From contig JAJFTD010000199.1 of NCBI GenBank assembly GCA_021373255.1, positions 611-64,610 of the forward strand: 64,000 nucleotides of DNA, written 5' to 3'. The DNA is from a bacterium. Its GTDB lineage: Bacteria > Armatimonadota > UBA5829. Of the stretch, positions 22,207 through 64,000 are shown piece by piece; positions within the stretch are counted from its first letter, which is position 1; each line of letters starts with the position of its first letter. The notes below the pieces were generated by a model, which did no database searches, was not told the origin of the DNA, and saw nothing but the letters and a program-made list of their open reading frames with translations. Made by a program: the position numbers and the translations under genes.

Positions 22207-22208
22207 GC

Positions 22209-35757: not shown

Positions 35758-35802
35758 CTTTCAGGCTCCTTTGGTTTATCAGATTGCCGCTCAATCTCGA
35801 CT

Positions 35803-47181: not shown

Positions 47182-47229
47182 CGTGTCGCCTCCACACTAG
47201 CGCTGAGTGCAAGGTGTGGAGGCGACACG
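47182..47229. other. 16-bp perfect-stem hairpin with a 16-nt loop, between the DUF4238 and HamA-like genes
   Basis: The stem is CGTGTCGCCTCCACAC...GTGTGGAGGCGACACG. It lies about 130 nt upstream of the HamA-like start, on the minus strand. Confidence 0.4.
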
Positions 47230-47438
47230 GGCTTCCGGCAGCAAGACTGCACCGAGGTTCGCGGCTATCCTATTCAAGGACAGTTGATGTTCCTTCCAGG
47301 TTACTATCCGCAGCATTTCTCCCTAATTGCGGGCTCAGGGCACGAGTGGAGTGTTTGATGATAGGCCGCAATTATGACCCTGTCTGTGTCGGCCACAGCT
47401 GCAGGCAACGCGAACAACGGAGCTCAGTTTGAACATTC

Positions 47439-48377
47439 TTATTCTCTGATCGAATCGGCGGCCGTGATCATTTCCTGGCATACGATGTCTGGATGCCGTG
47501 ACGAGATCATATAGCGATCTGCATTCTGCCACAGCAGAATATTGAAGAATCTCTCATTGTTGGCGGCCAATGGGTAATACTGACATGACGGTTCGTTGCG
47601 CATATCATCCATTGTGAGCAGTCGAGTTGGACTCAACGTAAAAAGAACAACTGTGTGTTTTGTCTTCAGTCCAAATGTGCCTTTAGCCAGGTCACTATTC
47701 GTATAGGTTACCGGATTGTCAGTTGTAATAAATACCGGCTCATCAGCAACGATGACCGACCACCGCTTTTCAAGCAGCACAGTCGCGATTTCTCCGACTG
47801 AGTACTTTATGTGGTCCACAAATATCCTCTGGAGTTCGTTGCCAGAAGCAGACTTGTATGTATTATATGAGGTTGCACCGAACGACATTGCCCGTCCTCG
47901 AAACACAATCTCGCCTATCCTCGGGTTTTCTAGACTATCTTTGGGAAGCGTTTCATAAAAAGAGACCAACTCATCATGTATCTTTTTCGTTTGCTCAAGC
48001 ATTGCGGGAGTTCGCACAAGCATGATGGATGTCAGGAGTGCGATGCCCTTTCTAAGTGATGGGGAACTCAAATCGACAAATCCAGTGGCCAACTGCGGCC
48101 ATATTCGTGAGAGCAATGCCTCAGCTTGTGCGAATCGGCTCTCCATTTCGAATGAATGCTTCCCATCGATATCTGCTGGTGAGTAGAGATGGTTTTGAGC
48201 GCATATATCATTGACTCCTGCAAGAACAGGATCACCATCATGTCGGTGAAAGATCCACACTCGAGGCTTTGGCGTGTTTACTGTCTCAGGTGTGGCAAAG
48301 TACTTGAGATAAAACCTTGGAACCCAATGCTGCTTGACTGGATCGTTCATCTTCTCAGTGCATTCCTCTCTTCTCAT
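47439..48377 (-). CDS. DUF4238 family protein
   Basis: The N-terminus 'QHWVPRFYLKYF' is a hallmark I recall for DUF4238. Confidence 0.5.
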   Translation of the reverse strand: MRREECTEKMNDPVKQHWVPRFYLKYFATPETVNTPKPRVWIFHRHDGDPVLAGVNDICAQNHLYSPADIDGKHSFEMESRFAQAEALLSRIWPQLATGFVDLSSPSLRKGIALLTSIMLVRTPAMLEQTKKIHDELVSFYETLPKDSLENPRIGEIVFRGRAMSFGATSYNTYKSASGNELQRIFVDHIKYSVGEIATVLLEKRWSVIVADEPVFITTDNPVTYTNSDLAKGTFGLKTKHTVVLFTLSPTRLLTMDDMRNEPSCQYYPLAANNERFFNILLWQNADRYMISSRHPDIVCQEMITAADSIRE

Positions 48378-50282: not shown

Positions 50283-50497
50283 TGTCGAGAAGCATCCATA
50301 CCAACCGCAAGGACATCATCGAACTTGCCCAGTGGAAATACGCCGATCCCGAAGTTCGACGAGCTAAGGCTCAAGAACTATGGGCAGATATTCGCCGAAA
50401 GCGAAGGGCAAAGCGACAGGTGAAAGGCGAACGTGCCACCGAAGATGCGATGGTTGCATCCGCAGAGGTCGAGGCCGTGCCCTATATCAGTGCATGA
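50282..50497 (+). CDS. small basic ORF, possibly a frameshifted N-terminus of the following gene
   Basis: It starts in TAATG overlap with the hen1 stop. It overlaps the 50433 ORF in a different frame. Confidence 0.25.
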   Translation: MSRSIHTNRKDIIELAQWKYADPEVRRAKAQELWADIRRKRRAKRQVKGERATEDAMVASAEVEAVPYISA

Positions 50498-52511
50498 CGC
50501 TGGACAATTCGTGCATTTCCCTGCCTCCCCTGATGACATCCGAAATGTCATGCGCCTCCTGCCGGGCGGATCGCTGGACGGGCTCGCCGGAATCGAGCTG
50601 TGCCTGGGAACCGAATACCAGAAAGATCCCTCGGTATACGACCCAGAAGACGGCTACGAACCAGATCCGCTCGTGGGACGCATCGGTGATGAGATGCTTC
50701 CCGGTATCTACAGGGGACACTGCCTGGGTTACTACAGCCGGCCGCACTCAGCAATCCGTGTCTTCGCCTATGTGCACGATCCTGAAAAGGTGGACGTCCG
50801 CCTGTGGGAAATCTACCTGAAGCTGCAAATGCTCGCAACCGTTGTCCACGAGATAGCGCACTCAGTTGATCTTACGACTCGGGTGGCCAAGGATCGCTGG
50901 CTGGCTGATGACAAGTCAAAGGTCGAGATGTATGCCGAGAAGCTGGAATACTCATGGCTGATGGATTGCGTGGTACCTTACTTGGAGATGACATATCCTG
51001 AACAGGTGAAGGCTTTGCTCGATTGGATAGAGCATTACGGCGGTGACCGTATCAGTCTCGCTCTACTTGCGGGAGAACCGCGTCGCACTGGAGCGAAAGG
51101 TATAACGCGCCTTGTTACAGATGCTTCAGAAGCTCTGCACGATCTGGCCCGATCGGTTGCGGATGGTAAGGATCTGAGGGAATCAAGGCTGGACTTCGCC
51201 AGGTATCTTCATAATGCCGAGTTGAATGGTGAGGCGTTGCGGATACTGGATCGGTTGCTGGCCGAGGATCAGAACGACGCTGAAGTGTTTGCACTGAAAG
51301 CTGATGTGTTCTATGATCTTGAGGATTACGAACAGAGCCGGGTAGCCGCCGAGCGGGCGATCTCGTTGGACGCTGATTCCGAAGATGCATGGATCCATCT
51401 TTCCTACGCTCACACGGAGCTTGGGAATTGGGATGACGCAATTCGAGTGACCACCCATCTGCTCGATCACTTCGACTTGCGCAAGCCTCGGAAAGCTAGC
51501 ATGCTGGTTAGTCGCGCGCACGCCAAGCTGAATACGGGCGACATACGGGGAATGAAGTGTGACCTGGGACTTGCGCTGCAGGAAAACGACAAGCCACCTG
51601 TTCGCTGGCAAGTTGCTACTGTTCGAGCACTGCATGAAGCAAGGTTAGACATGGACGGGACTAGAAAGATGAGCGAGACTGCCGGAGAGAATGAGCGCCC
51701 AGCGTCAGAGTTGATCGAGAAAGCTCTGGAGTCGCTGCCGGACCGTGAGGATGTCTACTGGGGCGCTGTCAGGGCATTGTGGACGCGTGGGAGCAAGGAT
51801 GTCTTTGAAGAGGCAAAGCGCCTGTGCTCAAGTGAGAACGCGTTAGAGAGGCGGTTGGGAGTGGATGTCCTCGGACAATTGGATGCTCCGGAGCGCAAGT
51901 TTGCGGGCGAGTCTGTTCTCATCCTTACCGGGATGCTGCGGAGACAGGGCCTGGTCCGCAAGGAGCAGGATCCGAACGTGCTCTACTCAATCGGTATCGC
52001 ACTCGGACATCTTGGCGATCCGAAAGCAACAAAGCCGCTTGCCGGTATGTCCGAGCATCCATCCGCTGCGGTGCGCTATGGCGTCGCCTTCGGCCTGTGT
52101 GGGCACACGAACAAACAGGCCGTGAAGGTCCTGATCGAGCTGTCATCGGACCCATACGCGTTCGTGCGGAACTGGGCCACATTTGGGCTGGCACAGCAGA
52201 TCGACTTGGATACTCCTGCGATCCGTGAGGCATTATTCCAGCGGGTCGATGACGAGGATGATGATACTCGCGCTGAAGCCTTGTTGGGACTTGCTATCAG
52301 AAAAGATGAGAGGGTAATTGAGCCGCTGACCAGCGAACTGAGCCGAGACGATGTGTCAGCACTTGCCATTGAAGCGGCGGAGAAGATGGCTGACCAGAGG
52401 CTGTATCCAGCGTTGCTTGCATTGAGCCAAGATTGGACCGGCGACGATGAGGCACTGGCATCCGCGATTGCCGCTTGTGAACAAGCTACCGGGAGGCCCG
52501 ACCGTGAGTGA
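50433..52511 (+). CDS. putative HExxH zinc-metallopeptidase-like protein with TPR and HEAT/PBS-lyase-like repeats
   Basis: The motif 'VVHEIAHSVD' is present. TPR-like repeats cover about aa 250-380. HEAT-like repeats include 'AVRYGVAFGL' and 'FVRNWATFGL'. The start is uncertain. Confidence 0.45.
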   Translation: MPPKMRWLHPQRSRPCPISVHDAGQFVHFPASPDDIRNVMRLLPGGSLDGLAGIELCLGTEYQKDPSVYDPEDGYEPDPLVGRIGDEMLPGIYRGHCLGYYSRPHSAIRVFAYVHDPEKVDVRLWEIYLKLQMLATVVHEIAHSVDLTTRVAKDRWLADDKSKVEMYAEKLEYSWLMDCVVPYLEMTYPEQVKALLDWIEHYGGDRISLALLAGEPRRTGAKGITRLVTDASEALHDLARSVADGKDLRESRLDFARYLHNAELNGEALRILDRLLAEDQNDAEVFALKADVFYDLEDYEQSRVAAERAISLDADSEDAWIHLSYAHTELGNWDDAIRVTTHLLDHFDLRKPRKASMLVSRAHAKLNTGDIRGMKCDLGLALQENDKPPVRWQVATVRALHEARLDMDGTRKMSETAGENERPASELIEKALESLPDREDVYWGAVRALWTRGSKDVFEEAKRLCSSENALERRLGVDVLGQLDAPERKFAGESVLILTGMLRRQGLVRKEQDPNVLYSIGIALGHLGDPKATKPLAGMSEHPSAAVRYGVAFGLCGHTNKQAVKVLIELSSDPYAFVRNWATFGLAQQIDLDTPAIREALFQRVDDEDDDTRAEALLGLAIRKDERVIEPLTSELSRDDVSALAIEAAEKMADQRLYPALLALSQDWTGDDEALASAIAACEQATGRPDRE

Positions 52512-53442
52512 TGGAGATCAATTCCAATCTCTTGTCCCCACTGGCACCGAGATTGTTACGCGCGCAGTCGCAGGTGAACACCCTGTAGGTTCCGTTGGAG
52601 TCATAACTGCATCGCCGGCGGATAACACGCACTCGTATCAAATCCACCTGGTGGACGGCGCCGAGATCAGCTTGCGGCGAGAGGAGTTTGCGATCTTGAA
52701 GCACTTCCAGCGCCATGGGATCGACGAGCCGGGAGCAGTGCTTGCGGAGTATGATCTGTATGACTGCGTGATCTATCGGTGCGTGGTCGGGTCGCGGGCG
52801 TACGGGCTGGACGGCGATGAGTCGGATATTGATAGGAGAGGGATCTATCTGCCACCGGCTGATCTGCAGTGGTCGCTTTACGGGGTGCCCGAACAGCTTG
52901 AGAACAAGGAGACTGACGAGGCCTATTGGGAGCTAAGGAAGTTCCTGATCCTGGCGCTGAAGGCCAATCCAAATATTCTGGAGTGTCTGCACACGCCTAT
53001 TGTGGAGATGGTGACACCTCTTGCCCAGGAACTGCTCGATATGCGGGAGGCGTTTCTATCGAAGCTGGTCTACCAAACCTACAATGGCTATGTGATATCC
53101 CAGTTCAAGAAGCTGGAGCAGGACCTGCGCACGCGCGGAGAGATTCGCTGGAAGCACGCGATGCACCTGATCCGGCTGCTCCTGTCGGGGATCACGGCGC
53201 TGCGCGAGCGCTATGTGCCGGTAAGCGTGGAGGAGCATCGGGACCGGCTTCTTGCGATCCGGCGGGGCGAAGTGCCGTGGGAGGAGATCGACGCGTGGCG
53301 GCTGGAGTTGCACAAGGAGTTCGATGCGGCGTATGAGAAGACGTCACTGCCGGAGAGGCCGGATTATGCCGGGGCGAATGAATTTCTGATAAAAGCGAGG
53401 AAGATGAGAGCTTTCGAGAATGGGTGCGATGGACATGGATAG
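52504..53442 (+). CDS. pol-beta superfamily nucleotidyltransferase, RlaP-like, associated with an RNA-repair operon
   Basis: The NTase motif is 'VGSRAYGLDGDESDIDRRGIY'. A likely GTG start overlaps the upstream stop. The full ORF call begins at 52447. Confidence 0.5.
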   Translation: MSDGDQFQSLVPTGTEIVTRAVAGEHPVGSVGVITASPADNTHSYQIHLVDGAEISLRREEFAILKHFQRHGIDEPGAVLAEYDLYDCVIYRCVVGSRAYGLDGDESDIDRRGIYLPPADLQWSLYGVPEQLENKETDEAYWELRKFLILALKANPNILECLHTPIVEMVTPLAQELLDMREAFLSKLVYQTYNGYVISQFKKLEQDLRTRGEIRWKHAMHLIRLLLSGITALRERYVPVSVEEHRDRLLAIRRGEVPWEEIDAWRLELHKEFDAAYEKTSLPERPDYAGANEFLIKARKMRAFENGCDGHG

Positions 53443-54409
53443 CAGGCTCACTAAGGTAATCGAGGAACACCCATACCCGCTGCTGTTCGCAACGATCAGC
53501 GGGGCGCATCTCTACGGGTTTCCGTCGCCGGATTCCGACTACGACCTGCGCGGTGTGCACATGCTGCCGGCCAAGGAAGTGGTAGGGCTGGAGCCCGGGC
53601 GGGAGACGATAGAACTGTCGGAAATGCGTGACGGCCTTGAAATCGACCTGGTGACGCACGACATCCGCAAGTTCTTCCTGCTCCTATTGAAGAACAACGG
53701 CTACGTGCTGGAGCAGTTATACTCGCCACTGGTTGTCCATACGACGCCGGAGCACGAGGAACTGAAGCAGATCGCAAGGGGCTGCATTACTCGCCACCAT
53801 GCCCACCACTACATGGGCTTTGCAGAGACTCAGTGGAAGCTCTTCGAGAAAGAACAGCCGCGCCGGGTGAAGCCGCTGCTATATACATTCCGGGTGCTGC
53901 TGACTGGTATCCACCTGATGCGCACGGGTCAGATCGAGGCCAATCTGCCTCGGCTGAATGAAGAGGCGAAGCTGTCCTATATCGATGATCTCATAACCAT
54001 GAAGGTGTCGGGGGCGGAGCAGTCGGCGCTGGATGATGCCAACGTATCATTCTACCTATCGGAGTATGATCGACTGCGGTATGATCTGGAAAACGCTTTC
54101 GGAAAGAGCACGCTGCCGGAGCGACCTCTTCGCCGAGGTGCTCTCAATGATCTCCTTGTCCGGGTGCGCCTGGGTCAAATCGGGGTTACGCCCGGAACTA
54201 CATGCCCCGTATGTGGACTGGAAGATGCATTTGATGAGCCGGGTGGCTATGATATCTGCGAACGATGTGGTTGGGAAGATGATCCCGTCCAGTCCGCCAA
54301 TCCCGATCCTTCCGGTGGAGCGAACAAGGAATCACTGAACGAGGCGCGGAAGCACAGTGAGGAAATGATTGCCCGATGGCAGCGTGTGAGGAGAGCGCAT
54401 GGCAACTGA
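53420..54409 (+). CDS. second RlaP-like pol-beta nucleotidyltransferase (paralogue)
   Basis: The NTase motif is 'SGAHLYGFPSPDSDYDLRGVH'. The C-terminal zinc ribbon is 'CPVCG...CERCGWEDD'. Confidence 0.5.
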   Translation: MGAMDMDSRLTKVIEEHPYPLLFATISGAHLYGFPSPDSDYDLRGVHMLPAKEVVGLEPGRETIELSEMRDGLEIDLVTHDIRKFFLLLLKNNGYVLEQLYSPLVVHTTPEHEELKQIARGCITRHHAHHYMGFAETQWKLFEKEQPRRVKPLLYTFRVLLTGIHLMRTGQIEANLPRLNEEAKLSYIDDLITMKVSGAEQSALDDANVSFYLSEYDRLRYDLENAFGKSTLPERPLRRGALNDLLVRVRLGQIGVTPGTTCPVCGLEDAFDEPGGYDICERCGWEDDPVQSANPDPSGGANKESLNEARKHSEEMIARWQRVRRAHGN

Positions 54410-54635
54410 GAAGATCTACATTCAACTGCTCAATGAGGGCACAGTTGTCTATCGCCCGACGCTTGGTGTAGTAGTGTCGGAAGGAGTATATCGCGTTCTG
54501 CCCACTGAAAACTATGATCCCGAAGACGAGGTGTGGGAGTTTCTGCCAGGTGACACTGTAAAGTGCACAGCAGAGGTGAAATCTGGAGCGCAAGGCGAGG
54601 AGACCGTGCTGGTTGCCAAAGAGAGAGTCGGCTGA
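54399..54635 (+). CDS. hypothetical 78-aa protein
   Basis: An RBS 'AGGAGAG' is present. The gene overlaps the end of the upstream gene. Confidence 0.35.
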   Translation: MATEKIYIQLLNEGTVVYRPTLGVVVSEGVYRVLPTENYDPEDEVWEFLPGDTVKCTAEVKSGAQGEETVLVAKERVG

Positions 54636-54667
54636 GCACACGAGCTACGCCCCCCGATGGAGAAACA

Positions 54668-57220
54668 ATGAAACTAACAATCCCTGAACTTGCCCTGGTG
54701 GTCCTGATCGGCCCATCGGGTTGTGGAAAATCGAGCTTTGCGCGGGCGCAGTTCAAGCCGACGGAGGTTCTATCCTCGGACTTTTACCGCGCGCTGGTTT
54801 CTGACGACGAGAACGATCAGGCGGCGACCAAAGATGCGTTCGAGATCCTGCACTTTATCGCGGCCAAAAGGCTTGCAGCCGGGAAGCTGACTGTGGTGGA
54901 TGCCACGAACGTCCAGCCGGAGGCCCGTAAGCCCCTGGTTGCACTTGCGCGGGAGTATCACTGCCTGCCGGTGGTGATAGTGCTCAACATCAATGAGAGG
55001 ATCTGCCATGATCGCAATCGGGAGCGCCCCGACCGCGACTTCGGCCCGCACGTCATTCGCCAGCAGAGCGCGCAGCTCAAGAAGTCCCTGGGTTACCTCA
55101 AGCGGGAGGGATTCCGGCACGTATTTGAGCTAAGATCGCCTGAGGAGGTTGCCGAGGTCGAGATAGAGCGGCAGCCTCTATGGAACAACAAGCGAGATGA
55201 GCATGGCCCATTCGATATCATCGGAGATGTTCACGGTTGCTTTGACGAGCTTTCCACGCTGATTGCCCATCTCGGTTATGAGGTCTCGGAGAACGTGGCC
55301 AGGCACCCGGAAGGGCGCAAGCTCGTGTTCCTCGGAGACGTCGTTGACCGGGGGCCTGGAATAGTCGAAACGCTGCGGCTGGTGATGGGGTCAGTTGCGG
55401 CGGGTACGGCGCTGTGTGTGCCCGGAAACCACGATATAAAGCTGTTGCGCAAGCTCTCGGGCCGGGACGTGCAAATCACCCACGGTCTTGAGGACTCACT
55501 CTCACAGCTCGCAGATGAGCCTGATGAGTTCAGGGAGCAGGTAAAGTTATTCATCGATGGCCTCGTGAGCCATTATGTGCTTGATGACGACAAACTCGTG
55601 GTAGCGCATGCAGGGATGAAAGAGGAGATGCAGGGGCGAGGCTCCGGCAAGGTCCGTGACTTCGCCTACTACGGCGAGACCACAGGTGAAACCGATGAGT
55701 TCGGTCTGCCGGTCCGTTACAACTGGGCGGCGGAGTATCGGGGAAAGGCCACCGTCGTCTACGGCCACACACCGGTGCCCGAAGCCGATTGGCTGAACCG
55801 CACTATCAATATTGACACCGGCTGCGTGTTCGGCGGGAGCCTCACGGCGCTGCGTTATCCTGAGAAAGAACTCGTGTCGGTTCCGGCAGCCCGGATCTAC
55901 GCAGAGCCCGCTAAGCCATTCGAGCCCAACGCGGACGCGCAGGCACTTTCCGCCCAGCAGGAGCATGATGATATCTTGGATATCGACGATGTCATTGGCA
56001 AGCGGATCGTGTCAACCCGCCTGAACCGCACCGTCACTATCCGGGAAGAGAATGCGACTGCCGCTCTCGAAGTTATGAGCCGGTTTGCCGCCAATCATAG
56101 GTGGCTGATCTACCTGCCGCCGACTATGTCTCCGTGCGAGACAAGTCGCAGACCCGATCTGCTGGAGCACCCCGAAGAGGCATTTTCATACTACCGGCAC
56201 GAGGGAGTATCGCGCGTGGTCTGCGAGCAGAAGCACATGGGCTCGCGGGCAGTTGTGATTGTCTGCCGAGACGAGGACGCCGCTCGCAAGCGCTTTGGTG
56301 TCGTGAGTGAAGGCATCGGCGTCTGCTACACCCGCACGGGCCGTCGGTTCTTCAACGACCTGGAGCTTGAGAAACAAATGTTGGAGGGAGTCCACTCGGC
56401 GCTGGATTCATCCGGCTTCTGGGACGAGTTCGCCACCGACTGGGTCTGCCTGGACTGTGAGCTTATGCCGTGGTCGGCAAAGGCTTATGAGTTGCTAAAG
56501 TCGCAGTATTCCGCCGTCGGGGCGGCATCAAAGGCTTCGCTGAGTGAGGCTGTCGCGGTCCTGGAGACTGCTGTCGGTAATGGCGCCGATGTGTCCGAGC
56601 TTCTTGGAAGATTCCAGAGCCGCAGGGTGATGGTAGGACAATATGTGGATGCGTACCGCCAATACTGCTGGCCTGTGGCTGGAATATCAGACTACAAACT
56701 CGCGCCGTTCCACATCCTGGCGACGGAGAGCGGAGTCCATGTAGACAAAGATCACATCTGGCACATGGATACTCTGGCGAAGATCTGCCGCGCTCTCGAT
56801 GGCGGCGACTCTTTGTTTCTTTCCACCCCGTATAAGGTAGTCGATGTAACCGACCCCGCAAGCCAGGAAGATGGAGTCCGCTGGTGGGAGGAGCTCACTG
56901 GCTCCGGCGGCGAGGGGATGGTTGTCAAGCCAATGGACTTCGTCACCAGGGGCCGCAAGGGCCTTTCGCAGCCAGCGGTGAAATGCCGTGGCCGGGAGTA
57001 CCTGCGTATCATCTACGGACCGGAATATACTGCGCCGGAGAACCTGGAACGACTGCGCTCGCGCGCTCTGGCTGGGAAACGGTCGCTTGCGATACGTGAG
57101 TTCGCCCTCGGAGTGGAGGGCTTGGAGCGGTTCGTTCGCAAGGAGCCGCTCAGACGGGTGCATGAGTGCGTGTTCGGCGTCCTTGCGCTCGAAAGTGAGC
57201 CGGTGGACCCGAGGCTTTAG
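54668..57220 (+). CDS. pnkp: polynucleotide kinase-phosphatase-ligase (bacterial Pnkp)
   Basis: The kinase P-loop is 'GPSGCGKSS'. The calcineurin-like phosphatase motifs are 'DIIGDVHGCFDEL', 'GDVVDRGP' and 'GNHD'. The adenylyltransferase/ligase motifs are 'KHMGSR' and 'GEGMVVKP'. The protein is 850 aa from the ATG at 54668. Confidence 0.8.
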   Translation: MKLTIPELALVVLIGPSGCGKSSFARAQFKPTEVLSSDFYRALVSDDENDQAATKDAFEILHFIAAKRLAAGKLTVVDATNVQPEARKPLVALAREYHCLPVVIVLNINERICHDRNRERPDRDFGPHVIRQQSAQLKKSLGYLKREGFRHVFELRSPEEVAEVEIERQPLWNNKRDEHGPFDIIGDVHGCFDELSTLIAHLGYEVSENVARHPEGRKLVFLGDVVDRGPGIVETLRLVMGSVAAGTALCVPGNHDIKLLRKLSGRDVQITHGLEDSLSQLADEPDEFREQVKLFIDGLVSHYVLDDDKLVVAHAGMKEEMQGRGSGKVRDFAYYGETTGETDEFGLPVRYNWAAEYRGKATVVYGHTPVPEADWLNRTINIDTGCVFGGSLTALRYPEKELVSVPAARIYAEPAKPFEPNADAQALSAQQEHDDILDIDDVIGKRIVSTRLNRTVTIREENATAALEVMSRFAANHRWLIYLPPTMSPCETSRRPDLLEHPEEAFSYYRHEGVSRVVCEQKHMGSRAVVIVCRDEDAARKRFGVVSEGIGVCYTRTGRRFFNDLELEKQMLEGVHSALDSSGFWDEFATDWVCLDCELMPWSAKAYELLKSQYSAVGAASKASLSEAVAVLETAVGNGADVSELLGRFQSRRVMVGQYVDAYRQYCWPVAGISDYKLAPFHILATESGVHVDKDHIWHMDTLAKICRALDGGDSLFLSTPYKVVDVTDPASQEDGVRWWEELTGSGGEGMVVKPMDFVTRGRKGLSQPAVKCRGREYLRIIYGPEYTAPENLERLRSRALAGKRSLAIREFALGVEGLERFVRKEPLRRVHECVFGVLALESEPVDPRL

Positions 57221-57482
57221 TGCTCGGAATACACAAGATCAACTGCCGATCAAGCAGATACACTTTGTAGCTGGGCATAGTGAGGGTGATGCCATTTGTC
57301 CTGTCTGCAGTCTCAAGACTGGCAGTATTGCCAAAGATCGGGACTGTCGCGTTCGTGTAGAAGTGGATTGTCTGTGGCAGTGTCTTGCGGCCATATAGAA
57401 AAGATTCTTTCTCCTATTATGTCCGGAGACCGGAACTGACGGAGGCTGATCCATCTGCTCTATTGTCAACCAGCAGCACACG

Positions 57483-60400
57483 CTATCGCACTCGCGGGCG
57501 CTTGGGAGGAGACAGATCGATTCGATATTGAACGAGTATGTCCTCGCCCGGATCGCTTCCGAGCTTCTGCCTAAGAAACTCTACCAGATCTTCTTGACGC
57601 GGCTGTCCGAATGCCAATCTGTATAGCGCCATGCTGCTCTTCAGGTTCTGTAAGCGTCGTTCGTCTCGGCTCAGTGGCAGTATAGGCACGTGGCGCTCAA
57701 TGCAGTATCCGCCGTTTGCCTCGCATATCCAGAACGGAACCAGATCATTGTCGCCTTTATGTCTTGCAGCAACAGCACGACTAAAGAGAGTTTTCCATGG
57801 GTCCGAGAATGGCTTCCACTCGCGGCACAAACCTCCCAAACCATACGTCTTCGCCAGATTCCGGCGAATAACATGTCCTTTGTAACGGTGGATTCTCCCT
57901 TCACGCTGTTCCATATCTACTGGGTTGGATGGCAGGTTCCAGTGGTATATCCTGTGGCAATACTGGTGGAAGTCCAGTCCTTCCTGCCCGATGGACGTCG
58001 ATGCGAGGATGAATGGTCTGAACGGTGAGTTGAATGCCGACCTAACCTGGTCCTCACGTGTCACATCTTCACCCTCCTCGTTTTTGCCTTCGCCAAACGC
58101 AAGGGCGAAGCGGCATCGGATGCTCCGCTTGACAAGGGGTGTTGTAACCAGCCTGCTAGTCGGATCCAAGCTGATCTCATCGAAGTCTAATCGTGTAGTA
58201 CGGATGGCAACAGCATCATGGATCACCTCTGCAATACCTGGCGCCGCTTTCTCAGGCGATGAGCCCAGTAGACCCAACGATTCGTTTAAGACGTGGACGT
58301 ACTCGTCCATCACTGATTGGATGTTCCCATCGATGCAATAGTCAAGAACCTGCTCCCAGAAAGGCTTTCCCTCACTACTACCTCTAATCAATGCTATGGA
58401 CTCAGGTAGGTTGAACATACTTCGAAAACCCATCGCAATGCGGGCGGCAGCAGTGAGAACTTCCGGCATGGACGTAACATTGTGTCCTGGCCACAGTCTG
58501 CAAAGTGCCCGTAGCGCAGTGACCGCGGGAGACGCAACTGCCAACTTGGATACGAGCTTGACTACTGCCTCGGGCACGCTTCCCAAGTCCTTGGGATTGT
58601 GGAACCACTCGCGGAATAGGTTCAAGTGATCAGCAAAGGAGGTCTGATCCTCATCGTCAACCCGTGTCTTAAGTGTACTCTTCCAGCCGATGGTGTCCGA
58701 ATTGCAGTCCAGCCAGCTTCCGGCTTCATTCTCGGCAAATGCCTTGTCGAGCAAGGCTACAGAAGACCACGCCCATCTATCGTCAAAGCCGTCGTCTCTC
58801 CGCATTCTCTTGTCTGTTGCTTTGCGCAGTAATGCACTGACCTGCTGCTCAATGGCCGATAGGACAAGCTCCTTTGTTGGGGCGATCCCATCTTTAGCCA
58901 AGCGTTTGGATATGGCCAGTGGGTCTATCCCGGTAGCCAAAGACACACATGGGTAGAGCAAGGGTAAGACTGCCATTCCAGTAAGGCGTCCCTCGCTTCT
59001 GGCAAACCTGAGGAGAGGACCGCGCTTTCGTCTCAGTTCGGTATAGTCCGTGCCTAAGTTCCCCAAACTTACCATCTGACGCTCCGCCTCATAGCTGCAT
59101 AGCGCTGCGATGACTTTGGATACCACTTTCCACGATGAAAAGATCAGACTCTTGGTTACATCCTGGACGCCGGCATCCGCAAATACACCGTCGGATTCGT
59201 AGTAGGGAAGTGACGGCGGCACCCATAGTAGCTTCCACGCGCCAGTGTCGAGATATTGCTGCATCAGCGCACGAAGCTTCGCGTTCTGAGCTTTGATCGG
59301 CCTATACTCTAAGAACGTATCCCATGTCAGCACGTAATCCGGATTTGAGATGATCACATCGCTCACGCGTCTGTTGCCGGTCTGGGAGGCCAACTCACGT
59401 TCGAATTGCTTCTTTATCTGGTAGCTGTCCATGAAGTTCAACAGGTACGGGCTTGACTTCCAATACTCGATCTGGTCGCAGGTCTGGAGCCCACGCGCGA
59501 TGCTATCGACGGCTGCATACCCCCGGATATCGTCGCTCTCCAACGTACAAGTTCCGGCCGCACGGTGCACGTCCTGGACCATGCCATTTCTATTGCTGCT
59601 TACCGCCAGGCGTTCCGTCCGAACCATAACACTGCGCAGCATCTCCTCAACTCTGCACTTGATAGTCCTGAGGCCTTTGGTGTCGTCTACACTTGTTCTT
59701 TGGAGTTGCCTTCTATACTGCTCCATCAACACTGCGAACTGAGCCGATTTCTCTTCATCGTCGAGAAGAAACCTAACAGTTCCAAGGAAGTCCCTGTAGT
59801 GATCCTCTTCGGTTCCCTCTTGGCTAAGAGTATACATTTTGTAGGGAGTTGCCGAGAGTAGCACTACCTTGGCATCTTTATACTGGAAGAGTGCTTGTGC
59901 GAGCTGGCTGGCTTCATCATCACCATTCAGAAGGTGCCTGAATCGCTGGAATTCGTCGAGAATTATCAGGTCAGGCTCAAGAGCATTAACGCAGCTTTTT
60001 GCAAGGATGCTCCTTAGCTCGCCAACAACCGCGTTCCTATCCCGTCGATCTTGCGCGGGGACGTTCTTGTAATGCTGCCTGCGACGCTGGAAGCTGGTGC
60101 AGACGTCATCAAACCGATGGCGAACTTCAGGATGCTCCTCCAGATCGCACAGAAAAAGCGCCTGTAGCCTTTTGTCGATGTCTTCTGGGTCAATTCCATG
60201 GTTACACCACCAATCCCAAGAAGTCGAGCTGACGTTCCCTTGGAACACGTTAGCCGCCGCTGTCCCTCGGAATCCCCAGCCGTCTCTAAGCATATGGTAG
60301 ATAAGGGCTCTTTCCTGCATCATCCCCAGATTGGATCCCAAGTCCAGCGAAGTGGCAGGAGTGAACGAAATGAAGTTGAGCTTCTTATCCGTCAAGTCTT

Positions 60401-60743
60401 TGAGACGGAGCGGTAGAAGAGTCAACCGTGAAGCAAGCGGGAAGTGATCTACTCCGACGCTCAGCCGATTTAGATTTTGGCGCGCGATATCTGCATTGGA
60501 GCACACATAGACTACATCGATGCGTTTGGTCGTGTCCCAGAGGCGGTCGACTGCTTTGGCTATGAGGCCACGGGCGACCATTGTCTTACCCAGCCCCACC
60601 TCATCGGCTACGAGGAACCGCTTAGTGGGGTTTTCGCCCTCATACAGCCTTTGGTATACGAAGTCCACTGTATTGCGCTGGAAGTCCTTCAGAGTGTTCA
60701 TGACCTCATCTGGATTAGGACGATTACTGCTCGAATCACTCAT
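57483..60743 (-). CDS. SNF2/RapA-like SF2 helicase of 1086 aa
   Basis: Helicase motifs are 'ADEVGLGKT', 'LIILDEFQRF', 'LLSATP' and 'QREGRIHRYKG'. Confidence 0.75.
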   Translation of the reverse strand: MSDSSSNRPNPDEVMNTLKDFQRNTVDFVYQRLYEGENPTKRFLVADEVGLGKTMVARGLIAKAVDRLWDTTKRIDVVYVCSNADIARQNLNRLSVGVDHFPLASRLTLLPLRLKDLTDKKLNFISFTPATSLDLGSNLGMMQERALIYHMLRDGWGFRGTAAANVFQGNVSSTSWDWWCNHGIDPEDIDKRLQALFLCDLEEHPEVRHRFDDVCTSFQRRRQHYKNVPAQDRRDRNAVVGELRSILAKSCVNALEPDLIILDEFQRFRHLLNGDDEASQLAQALFQYKDAKVVLLSATPYKMYTLSQEGTEEDHYRDFLGTVRFLLDDEEKSAQFAVLMEQYRRQLQRTSVDDTKGLRTIKCRVEEMLRSVMVRTERLAVSSNRNGMVQDVHRAAGTCTLESDDIRGYAAVDSIARGLQTCDQIEYWKSSPYLLNFMDSYQIKKQFERELASQTGNRRVSDVIISNPDYVLTWDTFLEYRPIKAQNAKLRALMQQYLDTGAWKLLWVPPSLPYYESDGVFADAGVQDVTKSLIFSSWKVVSKVIAALCSYEAERQMVSLGNLGTDYTELRRKRGPLLRFARSEGRLTGMAVLPLLYPCVSLATGIDPLAISKRLAKDGIAPTKELVLSAIEQQVSALLRKATDKRMRRDDGFDDRWAWSSVALLDKAFAENEAGSWLDCNSDTIGWKSTLKTRVDDEDQTSFADHLNLFREWFHNPKDLGSVPEAVVKLVSKLAVASPAVTALRALCRLWPGHNVTSMPEVLTAAARIAMGFRSMFNLPESIALIRGSSEGKPFWEQVLDYCIDGNIQSVMDEYVHVLNESLGLLGSSPEKAAPGIAEVIHDAVAIRTTRLDFDEISLDPTSRLVTTPLVKRSIRCRFALAFGEGKNEEGEDVTREDQVRSAFNSPFRPFILASTSIGQEGLDFHQYCHRIYHWNLPSNPVDMEQREGRIHRYKGHVIRRNLAKTYGLGGLCREWKPFSDPWKTLFSRAVAARHKGDNDLVPFWICEANGGYCIERHVPILPLSRDERRLQNLKSSMALYRLAFGQPRQEDLVEFLRQKLGSDPGEDILVQYRIDLSPPKRPRVR

Positions 60744-62577
60744 CTTTACTCCTCCGGATCAGCTCTTCCTCAAATGGTCGCCATATGTCTGCGAATCCGT
60801 GGGGCAGAACCTCATCAGCTCTAGGGTTCTTTTGTATCTCTTTAACCATGGAAGCGATGCGGCCCATCTTATCGGGGTAGCGAGAGAATGCCCTAACCAG
60901 CTCCTCCAGTAGAGGCACGCTCGATAGCCAATTCTCCCAGCTACCAATTCCAGCAATATGACCGGCTATGCGCAATGCAGTTGCGGCGTCATCATCTTCG
61001 CTCTCCGATAGTAAAAACAGCAGATATCGGATGAACCTGTCCTTGTTGCAGATGATCTCCTGTAACACTCGCTCACTTCTCCCGTCTGGCATGCCGGTAA
61101 CAGGCAAGTTAAGCACAAATCGCACAGAATCACAGGTTGTCGCTCCGTCATCGGCCGTAACCTCAAAGGCAACGAAGCTGGTTAACGCCGCAAAAGAGAC
61201 ATTTCCGAACCCAAGCCGACCGCACTCCCACAAACAACTGGCGTCCACAGCCCGCGATTCGTTCAGTGTCACTGGCCAGCATTTTACCTTTAGATCACTA
61301 TGCAATGAGTCTGAGTCCTCCGACTTCAGCAAGGCGAGGTTGTACGTGTCATCTTCGCCACACTCCACCTGCAATCTCAGTCCTGCAATCGAGATTGCTT
61401 CACGTGCCGACTCTACAAGTTGCTGGAGCCTTACCAGCACTGGATCCTGCGCACTTGCTTTGTTTGGTTCCTGGTATTCACAGAGTAGGTGAAGCAACGA
61501 CGAGTCGCTGTCCTGCTGCAGTAGTGCATCGATACCTACCTGACTGCGTTTTCCACTCATCTTTACCAGAAACTCGATATTGTTGCGGAAGGCCGCATTT
61601 GTGGCGTTCGCTGACCCGGTCCACAGATCGGCGTTCCACCCATTCTCTGTGATATACAGCTTTGCATGGAGACCTCTGTTGCTATTAGCTAAAGATGCAT
61701 CTTCAGTTCCATCTTGTTCTTCCGGTTCATCTCCAGTTTCCTCGATGGTGTAAATTCTGCTGAAGTGTTTGCGAGTTTCAGGGTCGAGCTGGTCCAAGCT
61801 CTCAACGCGGGAGACGATTATGGTAGTGTCCGCACTGTTCGCAATCTGTATTGAGACTCGATCTGATACGAATGGAGACACTACGAGCAGCCGCTTGTAA
61901 CCTCCCGGAAATGGGAAAATGCGTCGTCGGCTCATTCCCAGAGGCAAGAACTCCATATCTTCGAATGGAGACGGTGGAACGAAGTCCACGTAACGGATCT
62001 CTTCTGCCATTTCATCAATATCGCTGAGAACGCGCTCGTCGGGGGTTGTGACTGCTATCGTCGGCAGAAATCGCAAGAAGTCAGCTAGCGGTCGGTTCTT
62101 GCCTCGTGGACGTGTCGAAACGCCCCCGTCAATGGTGAGCACAGTATCCCAAGACCGGTCGAAAGTGAGGTTTCGGCTGAGGCAGAGCAGTCTGTAGATC
62201 GGCGCATCTTGCTCGTGAATAAACCGAAGGAACCACAGCTTTGGGTGAAAGACACCCGACCCGGCGGGCTGTACTTCAACCACCATCTTCTCAAGATAGC
62301 TATACAGAAGATTGTCAGGGCTGGGGACCGAGATTCTTCCTCGTTGGCAAAAGACAGATATCCGCTCCGACGTTCTGCGCAGTGCCTCAAGTATAGCCAC
62401 TGGCTCTCGCAACGCTTCGGCTTGGTCATTGATGTCAAAAAGCGAGAAGGACATAGGAGCGACGAGCAGAGCCATGAGGTCCAGAGAGAATGTGGTGGTA
62501 ATGGCTCGGTCAAACCTGTAACCAACGGGTGGCTTCAGTGCATCAAGGTAGACTTGACGGCTGTTCGCATCAAGCAT
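60736..62577 (-). CDS. PLD-family nuclease with two HKD motifs
   Basis: The two HKD motifs are 'FHPKLWFLRF' and 'LHAKLYITENGWNADLWTGSANATN'. Its end overlaps the start of the SNF2 gene by 8 nt. Confidence 0.7.
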   Translation of the reverse strand: MLDANSRQVYLDALKPPVGYRFDRAITTTFSLDLMALLVAPMSFSLFDINDQAEALREPVAILEALRRTSERISVFCQRGRISVPSPDNLLYSYLEKMVVEVQPAGSGVFHPKLWFLRFIHEQDAPIYRLLCLSRNLTFDRSWDTVLTIDGGVSTRPRGKNRPLADFLRFLPTIAVTTPDERVLSDIDEMAEEIRYVDFVPPSPFEDMEFLPLGMSRRRIFPFPGGYKRLLVVSPFVSDRVSIQIANSADTTIIVSRVESLDQLDPETRKHFSRIYTIEETGDEPEEQDGTEDASLANSNRGLHAKLYITENGWNADLWTGSANATNAAFRNNIEFLVKMSGKRSQVGIDALLQQDSDSSLLHLLCEYQEPNKASAQDPVLVRLQQLVESAREAISIAGLRLQVECGEDDTYNLALLKSEDSDSLHSDLKVKCWPVTLNESRAVDASCLWECGRLGFGNVSFAALTSFVAFEVTADDGATTCDSVRFVLNLPVTGMPDGRSERVLQEIICNKDRFIRYLLFLLSESEDDDAATALRIAGHIAGIGSWENWLSSVPLLEELVRAFSRYPDKMGRIASMVKEIQKNPRADEVLPHGFADIWRPFEEELIRRSKDE

Positions 62578-63835
62578 CTGATGCCTCCTTGCTTTTCAGC
62601 CCAGTAAGGATATCGTTCAGTAGCCTGGCAACCACGTTCCAGCGATAGTCGAGCTGGGCAGTTCCAGATGCACCGTTCCAAAGCTCCAGTGCGCGAGTAT
62701 TGACTAATCGTGCTCTGGCGTGTTTCAGCTCGAACTCTCGCCTGCATACCAGATCGCGAGCCATGCTGCGGTCTGCCAGATCCCGCAGATCATCTGAGGT
62801 CATCACAAGCCGTATCCATTCGCTAATGAATCGTTGAGCTCTTGCCGGAATCCTCCTCCAAGAGGATTGCACCACTTCCCAAAACTCAGTCACGTCCCAA
62901 TCCTCCAGTTGCTGCCACCGCCCCTCGATAGCAGCTGTCCAATCTTCAATTGTATGCCGGTAATGCTCAATCCACTCGGTATGGCCACACTTTTCAGCGA
63001 GTAGGAGGTTATAGAGCAGGGCTGATCCACGGATGATCTCAGAGAAGCATCTGGCATGTTCTATCTGAGTTTTTAGACTGGTTGGGAACTTGGAGAGGTC
63101 CGGATGCATCCAGACAAACGGCACGCCTCTGGTCGGCTTTGTATGGTCAACAAGATGGGCAAGGAGTGTTCCTGAACAGCTCATCATCATTCTTTCTTGA
63201 AGATACGAGGCTTGCGCTTTGCTCAGTGCCAGGTTGGCCTTGTTGGGGAAGTCACTCTCCATGGATGGGATACCTGGATCCCAATTACAGGCAACGGTAT
63301 CAAGTATCAACTCGCCGTCGTCTCCCCGGATCTGCCGCTTGTTGATCGCGTAGTAAGTATTCAGGTAACGATGATATTGGTCTTGGGAGCCGGGAAATCT
63401 GAGGATTCCCCAAGTACGTAGTCCGTTCCAGTAGATGCTGCTTGGCGCTCGAACTGGCAGAGCTTTCAGTCGCCTCCCGATTACTCCCTCGAGATCATCC
63501 GACCTGAGCAATGCTCTTACCAAGGCCTCTTCATCCCTGCGCACCTTGCCCCGGATCTCGTGCGACGGTGTCTTACGATCTTCGTGTCGCCTGTATATGC
63601 AAGGAATAAACAGAATGTACTTGGCACGGGTCTGAATGGTGCTGGTGCCTGGGAACATGAGGTCCGCCAGCGCATCACGAACAGGTCCGATGCCGAGCTC
63701 GTCCAGAGTATCAGGCTCCCGAAATGACCTGATGATCTCGAGCATCTTATGTCTATCCTGTTCTGAGAAATCTACCCAACCAAAAGAAGATGGCACTGTT
63801 TGACTCTCCAGTTTACTCATATTGCGGCAGTCCAT
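62570..63835 (-). CDS. hypothetical protein of 421 aa, first gene of the PLD/SNF2 operon
   Basis: A long ORF overlapping the PLD gene by 8 nt. No motif recognised. Confidence 0.45.
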   Translation of the reverse strand: MDCRNMSKLESQTVPSSFGWVDFSEQDRHKMLEIIRSFREPDTLDELGIGPVRDALADLMFPGTSTIQTRAKYILFIPCIYRRHEDRKTPSHEIRGKVRRDEEALVRALLRSDDLEGVIGRRLKALPVRAPSSIYWNGLRTWGILRFPGSQDQYHRYLNTYYAINKRQIRGDDGELILDTVACNWDPGIPSMESDFPNKANLALSKAQASYLQERMMMSCSGTLLAHLVDHTKPTRGVPFVWMHPDLSKFPTSLKTQIEHARCFSEIIRGSALLYNLLLAEKCGHTEWIEHYRHTIEDWTAAIEGRWQQLEDWDVTEFWEVVQSSWRRIPARAQRFISEWIRLVMTSDDLRDLADRSMARDLVCRREFELKHARARLVNTRALELWNGASGTAQLDYRWNVVARLLNDILTGLKSKEASDA

Positions 63836-64000
63836 CAGCCACTTTCACGCTCTTGCAATCGCACTCACGTCTACCCGAACCAACAGATATAGTCGCTAAG
63901 GTTCATGGCAATTTTCGGTGGATTTGAGCTGCATTTGCGCAGAAGATCAGGATTGCCTTACCCACTTATCTGAGAGACCTCTGGCTTAGGATACACGCGT

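What the first reader, a model, noticed from the sequence alone, without database searches (positions are those of the whole stretch)
57483..63835. Three-gene operon at the window edge: unknown 421-aa protein, two-HKD PLD nuclease and SNF2/RapA-like helicase (DISARM-like parts)
The genes overlap by 8 nt each, so translation is probably coupled. SNF2 helicases and PLD nucleases are the DrmD and DrmC parts of class 1 DISARM.

Here the PLD protein is unusually large at 613 aa. No DrmA, DrmB or methylase is visible within the window, which ends 165 nt past the first gene.

It may be a partial view of a DISARM-like system. It may also be a distinct SNF2 plus PLD module with a novel third component.
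Basis: partly seen in the sequence, partly recalled or inferred. Interest (0 to 1): 0.55.

Follow-up and report, generated by a model that had tools for sequence, protein, structure and literature searches.

The report
Azaca (ZacABC) anti-phage defence operon
The three overlapping genes are a complete copy of Azaca (ZacA, ZacB, ZacC), an anti-phage defence system that has already been described and tested experimentally; it is not a fragment of DISARM, so the finding is real but ordinary.

Summary
Three co-directional minus-strand ORFs (421, 613 and 1086 aa) lie at the stated coordinates. Both junctions are 8-nt ATGnnTGA overlaps with strong Shine-Dalgarno sites.

The DISARM reading does not hold. 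PADLOC models match all three proteins nearly end to end: ZacA 3.9e-132, ZacB 2.4e-179, ZacC E=0 at 1141 bits. DrmD, DrmC and RapA models reach only a tenth or less of their cut-offs.

The window comes from an Armatimonadota MAG contig. The 9.8 kb beyond the window edge holds AddAB, a SauUSI-type Type IV restriction enzyme and an orphan gene. It holds no DrmA, DrmB or methylase.

In 80 related loci from many phyla, zacA-zacB-zacC is always adjacent on one strand, and no fourth gene recurs. ZacB has two conserved HxK…N motifs and a Tdp1/PLD3-like two-lobed fold, and 613 aa is normal for its family. All ATPase motifs of ZacC are intact. ZacA (DUF6361) gives a confident all-helical model with no structural relative.

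Published work on Bacillus Azaca shows that all three subunits are needed to cleave T4 DNA. The system is already known and interest is low. The role of ZacA remains open.

The parts
62570..63835 (-). zacA: DUF6361 protein, the essential third subunit of Azaca, biochemical role unknown. The longest ORF is 421 aa. NCBI starts it at 63820 (416 aa). The likely true start is GTG at 63796 (408 aa).
   Evidence: Pfam DUF6361 1.3e-58, above the gathering score. PADLOC ZacA 3.9e-132 covering model positions 2-395 of 396. Start-codon analysis. AlphaFold model pLDDT 85.5, pTM 0.82, all-helical. No structural relative in PDB or BFVD.
60736..62577 (-). zacB: 613-aa single-chain nuclease of the PLD superfamily with two HKD-type motifs, followed by a beta-rich domain (about residues 365-500) and a helical domain (about 500-613).
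   Evidence: PADLOC ZacB 2.4e-179 covering positions 1-581 of 586. Model pLDDT 81.9. Foldseek best matches are Tdp1, PLD3 and PPK1 at E 5e-8, probability 1.0, 412-475 aligned columns.
57483..60743 (-). zacC: 1086-aa SF2 ATPase/helicase with a family-specific insertion of about 590 aa between motif III and motifs V-VI.
   Evidence: PADLOC ZacC E=0, 1141 bits, covering positions 6-1017 of 1019. Pfam Helicase_C and DEAD are weak hits. The nearest solved relative by profile is RapA, in the core motifs only.
62164..62250 (-). Codes ZacB residues 110-138: first HKD-type motif, F-H111-P-K113-x-W ... S-R135-N136-x-T138 (degenerate, Tdp1-like HKN).
   Evidence: At least 97% conserved across 67 orthologues and intact in the query. 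Invariant in alignment A2.
61600..61674 (-). Codes ZacB residues 302-326: second HKD-type motif, G-L-H304-A-K306-x4-E ... G321-S322-A-N324-A-T326.
   Evidence: This is the only stretch that Pfam PLDc_2 and NCBIfam DrmC touch.
60582..60608 (-). Codes the ZacC Walker A motif (motif I), A46-D-E-V-G50-L-G-K53-T54.
   Evidence: Invariant in 55 orthologues and in A3. Mutating Walker A in Bacillus ZacC abolishes DNA cleavage (bioRxiv 10.1101/2025.07.10.664194).
59946..59957 (-). Codes the ZacC Walker B motif (motif II), D263-E264-F265-Q266. Motif III, S297-A-T299, follows about 100 nt downstream.
   Evidence: Invariant.
57885..57998 (-). Codes ZacC motifs V-VI: T916-S-x-G-Q-E-G-L-D924 ... Q946-R-E-G-R950-x-x-R953.
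   Evidence: Invariant. This is the only segment shared with DrmD, DpdE, BrxH and RapA.
62570..62590 (-). zacA/zacB junction: SD AAGGAGG (62584-62590), zacB ATG (62575-62577), zacA TGA (62570-62572); 8-nt overlap.
   Evidence: The same 8-nt overlap occurs in 41 of 76 scorable related loci.
60736..60755 (-). zacB/zacC junction: SD GGAGGAG (60749-60755), zacC ATG (60741-60743), zacB TGA (60736-60738); 8-nt overlap.
63836..64000 (-). Start of the roughly 300-nt non-coding leader and presumed promoter region upstream of zacA. It continues 134 nt beyond the window, up to the stop codon of an unrelated 365-aa gene.
   Evidence: The sigma-70 consensus scan found no site here, so the promoter is inferred from the gap, not shown.
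57221..57482 (.). 262-nt convergent intergenic spacer between the zacC stop and the pnkp stop. It contains one weak terminator-like hairpin on the minus strand (57257-57243).
   Evidence: One such site was found against 5.0 expected in shuffles, so this is not significant.

Best explanation
The locus is a complete, apparently functional Azaca system (zacA-zacB-zacC) sitting in a defence island of an Armatimonadota genome.

The proposed mechanism is as follows.
1. The three proteins are made from one translationally coupled mRNA and assemble into a ZacABC complex.
2. ZacC, an SF2 ATPase with SNF2-like core motifs, binds ATP and most likely translocates on double-stranded DNA.
3. ZacB carries both halves of a PLD active site (H111/K113 and H304/K306) in one chain. 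It cuts DNA without a metal ion, through a covalent phospho-histidine intermediate.
4. ZacA is required for activity, as a scaffold or as the target-sensing part.
5. Self is spared because the complex prefers hypermodified phage DNA such as the glucosyl-hydroxymethylcytosine DNA of T4, not because host DNA is methylated. This makes Azaca work like a three-subunit Type IV, modification-dependent restriction enzyme.

Shown here: family membership, gene order, intact catalytic motifs, the PLD fold, and independence from neighbouring genes.
Shown elsewhere for the Bacillus and Klebsiella systems: defence against T4, preferential cleavage of T4 DNA, and the requirement for all three subunits, the PLD site and the Walker A motif.
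Inferred: that this orthologue behaves the same way, that ZacC is a translocase, the role of ZacA, and that DNA modification is the cue.
For: - Membership: near full-length PADLOC hits to ZacA, ZacB and ZacC, plus DUF6361 above Pfam's cut-off.
- Architecture: zacA-zacB-zacC adjacent on one strand in 69 of 80 loci from Bacillota, Chloroflexota, Acidobacteriota, Planctomycetota, Pseudomonadota, Cyanobacteria, Actinomycetota and methanogenic archaea. The other 11 are cut by contig ends.
- Self-contained: no flanking family recurs in more than 6 of 80 loci. Homologues occur on 52 plasmids, including Cronobacter pESA3 next to an integrase.
- Catalytic competence: both HxK...N motifs of ZacB and motifs I, II, III, V and VI of ZacC are intact. 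ZacB has a two-lobed PLD fold like Tdp1 and PLD3.
- Coupled expression: ATGnnTGA junctions with strong SD sites, and the overlap is conserved.
- Function, from bioRxiv 10.1101/2025.07.10.664194: more than 1,000,000-fold protection against T4; purified ZacABC preferentially degrades T4 dsDNA; all three subunits are required; PLD active-site and ZacC Walker A mutants are dead; the cut site is degenerate.
- Context: the locus lies among other defence genes, namely a SauUSI-type Type IV enzyme, a HamB-like helicase, a PycTM effector and a type I R-M system.
Against: - Nothing about this particular orthologue has been tested. It shares only 37-54% identity with the other ZacA sequences found. I could not align it directly with the Bacillus or Klebsiella proteins that were assayed.
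- The authors of the preprint suggest the modified-DNA cue; they do not demonstrate it.
- Mutating conserved ZacA residues did not affect complex formation or cleavage in vitro, so a sensing role for ZacA has no direct support.
- The phages of Armatimonadota and their DNA modifications are unknown.
- No promoter was detected by the sigma-70 consensus scan. That scan may simply not suit this phylum.
Confidence: 0.9

Rival explanations
1. It is a fragment or variant of class 1 DISARM. The helicase would be DrmD and the PLD protein DrmC, with DrmA, DrmB and the methylase lying just outside the window.
For: PADLOC and NCBIfam DrmD and DrmC models give weak hits. The domain types, an SF2/SNF2-like helicase plus a PLD protein, are the same as in DISARM.
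Against: - The hits cover only about 60 residues of motif V-VI and about 45 residues of one HKD motif. They score 62 against 610 bits and 17 against 133 bits.
- The Zac models match end to end.
- The next 9.8 kb of the source contig contains AddAB, a SauUSI-like enzyme and an orphan gene, and no DrmA, DrmB or methyltransferase.
- None of 80 related loci has a recurrent extra gene.
Confidence: 0.02
2. It is a housekeeping nucleic-acid repair or transcription module, RapA-like or working together with the flanking AddAB and Pnkp/Hen1 repair genes, and not an immune system.
For: RapA is the nearest solved relative of ZacC. The operon lies between AddAB and a Hen1/RlaP/Pnkp RNA-repair operon. A related genome keeps the same AddAB ... 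Azaca ... Pnkp order. The best structural matches of ZacB include the repair enzyme Tdp1.
Against: - NCBIfam RapA scores 31.6 against a cut-off of 576 bits, and the RapA similarity spans about 45 residues.
- Neighbours are unrelated in the other loci across phyla.
- The cassette sits on plasmids next to integrases.
- The distribution is patchy and cuts across phyla, as expected of mobile defence genes.
- Homologous operons protect against T4 experimentally.
Confidence: 0.03
3. It is Azaca, but it acts by abortive infection. A phage cue would activate the complex, which would then degrade all DNA including the host chromosome, with no discrimination of modified phage DNA.
For: Other nuclease-helicase systems such as Hachiman work this way (PMC12278908, listed). 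The Azaca cleavage motif is highly degenerate. No host-protecting methylase accompanies the system.
Against: Purified Bacillus Azaca showed a clear preference for T4 DNA over host chromosomal and plasmid DNA in the same assay, with no added activator. In vivo protection of more than 1,000,000-fold in plaque assays fits direct restriction better.
Confidence: 0.15

Closest known systems
Azaca (ZacABC), named by Millman et al. 2022 (cited in PMC10952713) and studied biochemically in bioRxiv 10.1101/2025.07.10.664194
   Same: It has the same three protein families in the same order: a DUF6361 protein, a two-HKD PLD nuclease and a large SF2 helicase. The profile matches are near full-length and the catalytic motifs are intact.
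   Different: The host phylum is different (an Armatimonadota MAG), and the nearest ZacA found is only 54% identical. A few positions that are at least 90% conserved differ in the ZacC insertion (S542, A658, A726, V727). None lies in a catalytic motif. No functional difference is indicated.
SauUSI-type Type IV ATP-dependent restriction enzymes (PDB 7CLG; PMC7913695)
   Same: Both combine a PLD-family nuclease with an SF2 ATP-driven motor, lack a cognate methylase, and act on modified foreign DNA. A SauUSI homologue lies two genes upstream of zacA (L001:5362-8490; 1.5e-87 to 7clg_A). The ZacB profile weakly matches the SauUSI PLD motif (E 0.0023).
   Different: SauUSI is one polypeptide with a single HKD motif, so the active site forms on dimerisation, and it has a DUF3427 recognition domain. 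Azaca is split over three proteins. ZacB carries both HKD motifs in one chain, there is no DUF3427 domain, and ZacA has no counterpart in SauUSI.
Class 1 DISARM (DrmA, DrmB, DrmC, DrmD, DrmMI)
   Same: It includes a PLD-domain protein and an SNF2-like helicase. The helicase C-terminal motifs are alignable.
   Different: There is no DrmA, DrmB (DUF1998) or methyltransferase. Scores are ten-fold or more below the family cut-offs. DrmC is a small single-HKD protein (model lengths 153-236 positions), whereas ZacB is a 613-aa two-HKD enzyme.
Mokosh (PLD nuclease plus helicase defence system)
   Same: It pairs a PLD-type nuclease with a helicase in anti-phage defence. The literature groups it with Azaca among nuclease-NTPase systems.
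   Different: The Mokosh helicase is SF1 and RNA-helicase-like, and type II Mokosh cleaved only ssDNA. Azaca has an SF2 helicase, cleaves T4 dsDNA, and needs the extra ZacA subunit. No Mokosh model matched these proteins.
Tdp1 / PLD3 (eukaryotic two-lobed PLD-superfamily nucleic-acid phosphodiesterases)
   Same: They are the best structural matches to the ZacB model. Like ZacB they are single chains with two HxK...N half-sites forming one active site.
   Different: Sequence identity is 9-14% and target-normalised TM-score is only 0.40-0.48. ZacB has an extra C-terminal region of about 250 aa and works inside a helicase complex. The resemblance is at superfamily level only.

Membership tests
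Azaca (ZacABC) | A ZacA subunit (DUF6361) is present | tested here: met
   Pfam PF19888 1.3e-58, 199 bits against a cut-off of 25. PADLOC ZacA 3.9e-132 covering 2-395 of 396.
Azaca (ZacABC) | A ZacB PLD-family nuclease is present with its catalytic HxK motifs | tested here: met
   PADLOC ZacB 2.4e-179 covering 1-581 of 586. H111/K113 and H304/K306 are conserved and intact. PLD fold confirmed.
Azaca (ZacABC) | A ZacC SF2 helicase is present with Walker A and B motifs | tested here: met
   PADLOC ZacC E=0, 1141 bits, covering 6-1017 of 1019. GLGKT 50-54, DEFQ 263-266, SAT 297-299 and QREGR 946-950 are intact.
Azaca (ZacABC) | The three genes are contiguous, on one strand, in the order A-B-C | tested here: met
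   The same layout occurs in 69 of 80 related loci with no counter-example.
Azaca (ZacABC) | Confers resistance to phage; the complex cleaves phage DNA | not testable with these tools
   Shown only for the Bacillus massilioanorexius and Klebsiella operons.
DISARM class 1 | The core pair DrmA (helicase) and DrmB (DUF1998) is present | tested here: not met
   Neither is present in the window genes scanned or in the 9.8 kb beyond the window edge.
DISARM class 1 | The helicase reaches the DrmD family threshold | tested here: not met
   NCBIfam DISARM_DrmD scores 62.4 bits against a cut-off of 610, over residues 894-954 only.
DISARM class 1 | The PLD protein reaches the DrmC family threshold | tested here: not met
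   NCBIfam DISARM_DrmC_I scores 17.2 bits against a cut-off of 133, over residues 299-345 only.
DISARM class 1 | An adjacent DNA methyltransferase (DrmMI) is present | tested here: not met
   The only DNA methyltransferase is HsdM (7724-9244), inside its own type I R-M operon 48 kb away. Hen1 (48876-50282) is an RNA methyltransferase in the Pnkp operon.
RapA (RNA polymerase-associated SNF2 ATPase) | Full-length match at the family threshold | tested here: not met
   NCBIfam PRK04914 scores 31.6 bits against a cut-off of 576. The profile-to-PDB match to RapA spans about 45 residues at E 2e-5.
SNF2 family (Pfam SNF2-rel_dom) | The N-terminal ATPase domain scores above the gathering threshold | tested here: not met
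   21.8 bits against 24.9. Affinity to SNF2-type enzymes (RapA, DrmD, DpdE) is confined to the core motifs, so ZacC is best described as SF2 with SNF2-like motifs.
PLD superfamily | Duplicated HxK...(G/S)(S/R)xN motifs and a two-lobed alpha/beta fold | tested here: met
   Motifs. Foldseek probability 1.0 to Tdp1, PLD3 and PPK1. Pfam PLDc_2 itself is below its cut-off, 21.1 against 27.

The most novel reading that the evidence does not exclude
ZacA (DUF6361) may be a protein fold not seen before that acts as the target-discriminating subunit of Azaca. On this reading Azaca is a three-piece counterpart of single-chain Type IV enzymes such as SauUSI, which here sits two genes away. ZacA would supply what the DUF3427 recognition domain supplies in SauUSI. 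Its invariant but low-confidence N-terminal peptide (S11, W15, D17 in 416-aa numbering) would dock on ZacB or ZacC. In this Armatimonadota lineage Azaca would be the fixed member of a variable defence hotspot between addAB and the pnkp operon. None of this is excluded by the evidence, and none of it is shown.
Probability: 0.25. Interest if true: 0.45.

Novelty: already known. Interest (0 to 1): 0.15.

Why it matters
As an annotation result it matters little. Standard defence-finding tools already recognise this operon, and NCBI already labels its parts as a DUF6361 protein and a phospholipase D family protein. The useful outcome is the correction: this is not DISARM, nothing is missing beyond the window edge, and the size of the PLD protein is normal for its family.

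Some side results may help people who work on Azaca. The 8-nt zacA/zacB overlap is conserved across phyla. ZacB is a single-chain two-HKD enzyme of the Tdp1/PLD3 structural type with an extra C-terminal region of about 250 aa. ZacA gives a confident model with no detectable structural relative. No Azaca subunit has a detectable relative with a solved structure. The role of ZacA and the way Azaca recognises its target remain open questions about a system found in hundreds of species.

Tried and rejected
- My first reading of 'Zac' as 'Zorya-accessory' came from memory and was wrong. The literature shows ZacABC is Azaca. No ZorA or ZorB is present.
- DISARM and RapA membership both failed their thresholds.
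- The exact-sequence look-up of the 421-aa ZacA found nothing. The 416-aa form found the source contig.
- I looked for a recurrent fourth gene in 715 flanking ORFs of 80 loci. None recurs in more than 6 loci, and the top clusters look like type I R-M subunits.
- Sequence and profile searches of ZacA, ZacB and ZacC against PDB gave nothing for ZacA, a marginal SauUSI PLD-motif hit for ZacB, and RapA motif-only hits for ZacC.
- Fold searches for ZacA in PDB and in BFVD gave no match better than E=1.5.
- PHROGs gave no hit for ZacA or ZacB.
- The promoter and terminator consensus scan of 57000-64000 found fewer sites than in shuffled sequence.
- I could not align this locus directly with the assayed Bacillus or Klebsiella Azaca proteins, because those sequences were not retrievable with the tools.

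Full report
OBSERVATION. Both junctions have the form ATGnnTGA, an 8-nt overlap. A strong Shine-Dalgarno sequence lies inside the end of each upstream gene: AAGGAGG 6 nt before the second ATG and GGAGGAG 5 nt before the third. Translational coupling is therefore a reasonable inference. One refinement concerns the first gene. Its homologues begin MPS(T/S)FGW.DF exactly where this protein reads VPSSFGWVDF. That V is a GTG codon at 63796 with GGAGAG 7 nt upstream. The real product is thus most likely 408 aa, which fits the 399-416 aa of most relatives. NCBI annotates a 416-aa form.

IDENTITY. PADLOC profiles match all three proteins almost end to end: ZacA at 3.9e-132, ZacB at 2.4e-179, and ZacC at E=0 with 1141 bits. 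Pfam places the first protein in DUF6361 at 1.3e-58. For the other two it finds only sub-threshold PLD and helicase signals. The literature identifies ZacABC as the Azaca anti-phage system, made of a helicase, a PLD nuclease and a DUF6361 protein. My own first recollection, that Zac stood for Zorya-accessory, was wrong and is withdrawn.

WHY IT IS NOT DISARM. The DrmD, DrmC and RapA models of NCBIfam score 62 against 610 bits, 17 against 133 bits, and 32 against 576 bits. Those matches cover only the conserved helicase motifs V-VI or a single HKD motif. The 416-aa ZacA is on record on NCBI contig JBDKRM010000055.1 (GCA_039683435.1, 168,930 bp, labelled as an Armatimonadota MAG). That contig is 100% identical to the window over 11,431 nt. 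Beyond the window edge it carries three things.
- An orphan 365-aa gene.
- A 1042-aa enzyme with PLD, helicase and DUF3427 domains. It matches PADLOC's Type IV restriction model at 4e-257 and the solved structure of SauUSI (7CLG) at 1.5e-87.
- AddA and AddB.
There is no DrmA, DrmB or methyltransferase. The only DNA methylase in the whole window is the HsdM of a complete type I R-M operon at 4.9-11.1 kb.

CONSERVATION AND AUTONOMY. ZacA relatives number more than 3,500 clusters in the protein collection. They occur in at least 545 species-representative genomes. Among the 80 best loci, which span many bacterial phyla and Methanotrichaceae archaea, 69 have zacB and zacC directly after zacA on the same strand. 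Nine have zacB and then the contig ends, and two end after zacA. There is no counter-example. The 8-nt zacA/zacB overlap recurs in 41 of 76 scorable loci. Clustering 715 flanking ORFs showed no family present in more than 6 loci. So Azaca is a self-contained three-gene cassette. ZacC homologues are found on 52 plasmids. On Cronobacter pESA3 the cassette is annotated as a DUF6361 protein, a phospholipase D family protein and a helicase-related protein, next to a tyrosine integrase. One 24-kb record labelled as a phage also carries a homologue.

THE PARTS.
ZacB. Two motifs are at least 97% conserved in 67 orthologues and intact here: F-H111-P-K113...S-R135-N136-x-T138 and G-L-H304-A-K306...G321-S322-x-N324-x-T326. 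An AlphaFold model built from 36 sequences (pLDDT 81.9, pTM 0.80) shows two alpha/beta lobes followed by a beta-rich domain and a helical domain. Its best Foldseek matches are single-chain two-lobed PLD-superfamily enzymes that act on nucleic acids or phosphoanhydrides: Tdp1, PLD3 and PPK1 (E about 5e-8, probability 1.0). So 'two-HKD PLD nuclease' is confirmed. The claim that it is unusually large is not, because family members are 598-669 aa.

ZacC. The Walker A motif (GLGKT 50-54), DEFQ 263-266, SAT 297-299, motif V and QREGR 946-950 are invariant and intact. About 590 residues between motif III and motif V are specific to the family. A 22-sequence profile finds only RapA among solved structures, over about 45 residues at E about 2e-5. 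Pfam's SNF2 domain is below threshold. ZacC is best called an SF2 ATPase with SNF2-like core motifs.

ZacA. The model is confident (pLDDT 85.5, pTM 0.82) and all-helical. It has no structural relative in PDB or in the viral structure set, with a best E of 1.5. No sequence or profile hit to PDB was found either. Its first 38 residues or so are modelled with low confidence yet contain invariant residues S11, W15 and D17. I read this, as inference only, as a possible docking peptide for a partner subunit.

MECHANISM. The following was shown for homologues in bioRxiv 10.1101/2025.07.10.664194.
- The Bacillus massilioanorexius and Klebsiella Azaca operons give more than 1,000,000-fold protection against T4.
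- Purified Bacillus ZacABC preferentially degrades T4 dsDNA, starting at about 10 nM.
- All three subunits are required.
- PLD active-site mutants and a ZacC Walker A mutant are inactive.
- The cleavage motif is degenerate.
- Mutating conserved ZacA residues had no effect on complex formation or cleavage.
- The authors suggest glucosyl-hydroxymethylcytosine as the recognition cue but do not prove it.
Transferring this to the present locus is an inference. It rests on full-length homology, intact motifs and identical architecture. On that basis the most likely mechanism is a ZacABC complex in which ATP-bound ZacC engages and probably translocates along DNA. ZacB then cuts through a phospho-histidine intermediate, which is general PLD-superfamily chemistry. 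Hypermodified phage DNA is the preferred substrate, which explains the absence of a protective methylase. In effect this is a three-subunit analogue of Type IV enzymes such as SauUSI. The main mechanistic rival is activation followed by indiscriminate DNA degradation (abortive infection, as in Hachiman). I give that about 0.15.

CONTEXT. The window is a mosaic of defence and mobile-element genes.
- A type I R-M operon, an AAA_21/AAA_15 ATPase, a D5-type primase-helicase and a large serine recombinase lie in the first 24 kb.
- A PycTM/2TM effector lies at 34412-34933.
- A HamB-like helicase lies at 42931-46380.
- A Hen1, HEAT/TPR, RlaP, RlaP-CPCC and Pnkp RNA-repair operon lies at 48876-57220 and converges on zacC.
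A related metagenomic genome whose ZacB is 90% identical keeps the order AddAB, Azaca, Pnkp. In it, the SauUSI-like gene is replaced by two unknown genes, one of which is 33% identical to the 365-aa orphan. So the interval between addA and zacA behaves as a variable slot.

VERDICT. The DISARM interpretation is rejected. Novelty is 'already known' and interest is low (0.15). What remains open is general to Azaca and not specific to this locus: what ZacA does, and how targets are recognised.

Noticed in passing
L001:5362-8490 (source contig, 1.3-4.5 kb beyond window position 64000): A 1042-aa enzyme with PLD, SF2 helicase and DUF3427 domains belongs to the SauUSI family of Type IV modification-dependent restriction enzymes (PADLOC mREase_IV 4e-257; 7clg_A 1.5e-87 over 875 residues). 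It lies two genes upstream of zacA, so two PLD-plus-motor systems without methylases sit side by side.
   Followed up: partly
L001:8589-9686 and L084:5842-6957: An orphan 365-aa protein lies directly upstream of zacA, with no Pfam, PADLOC or PHROGs hit. A 33%-identical homologue (E 3e-56) occupies the same addA-zacA interval in a related genome. There the SauUSI-like gene is replaced by that homologue plus an unknown 511-aa protein. The interval looks like a variable cargo slot.
   Followed up: partly
window 48876-57220 (+ strand): A bacterial Pnkp/Hen1 RNA-repair operon in an expanded form: Hen1 (468 aa), a 692-aa HEAT/TPR repeat protein, two RlaP paralogues (the second fused to a Cys-rich CPCC domain) and Pnkp (885 aa). 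It converges on zacC.
   Followed up: no
window 42931-48377 (- strand): A 1149-aa HamB-like DEAD-box helicase (PADLOC HamB 7e-37). The gene upstream of it (46256-47212, 318 aa) has no HamA/DUF1837, Pfam, PADLOC or PHROGs hit. A DUF4238 protein lies at 47439-48377. This may be a Hachiman-like pair with an unrecognised effector.
   Followed up: no
window 34412-37152 (- strand): A 173-aa PycTM/CBASS-type 2TM effector (PADLOC 8.7e-37) has no recognisable cyclase beside it. The two upstream genes (209 aa and 449 aa) have no Pfam or PADLOC hit.
   Followed up: no
window 4946-12724 (+ strand): A complete type I R-M operon (HsdR 921 aa, HsdM 506 aa). Its 635-aa specificity subunit carries a C-terminal pentapeptide-repeat region. 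An AAA_21/AAA_15 ATPase follows it.
   Followed up: no
window 18264-23906 (+ strand) and the GC profile at 24-48 kb: A D5_N/DUF5906 primase-helicase and a large serine recombinase suggest the boundary of an integrated mobile element. GC content falls from about 0.55 to 0.49-0.51 between 26 and 48 kb, and the GC skew changes sign near 24 kb.
   Followed up: no
window 37149-40791 (- strand): A B12-binding radical SAM enzyme (543 aa) lies next to a GT4 glycosyltransferase (412 aa). The glycosyltransferase has a weak, sub-threshold hit to the Pfam 'GT4 in conflict systems' family.
   Followed up: no
L085:8775-12003: In one related metagenome assembly, zacC is called as two genes (139 aa and 938 aa). 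This is either a frameshift that inactivates the helicase or an assembly error.
   Followed up: no
GenBank MT835621.1, 16146-19328 (hit H16): A 24-kb unannotated 'Bacteriophage sp.' contig from human faeces encodes a full-length ZacC homologue (34% identity, 98% coverage). Either Azaca is carried by a phage or the contig is misclassified.
   Followed up: no
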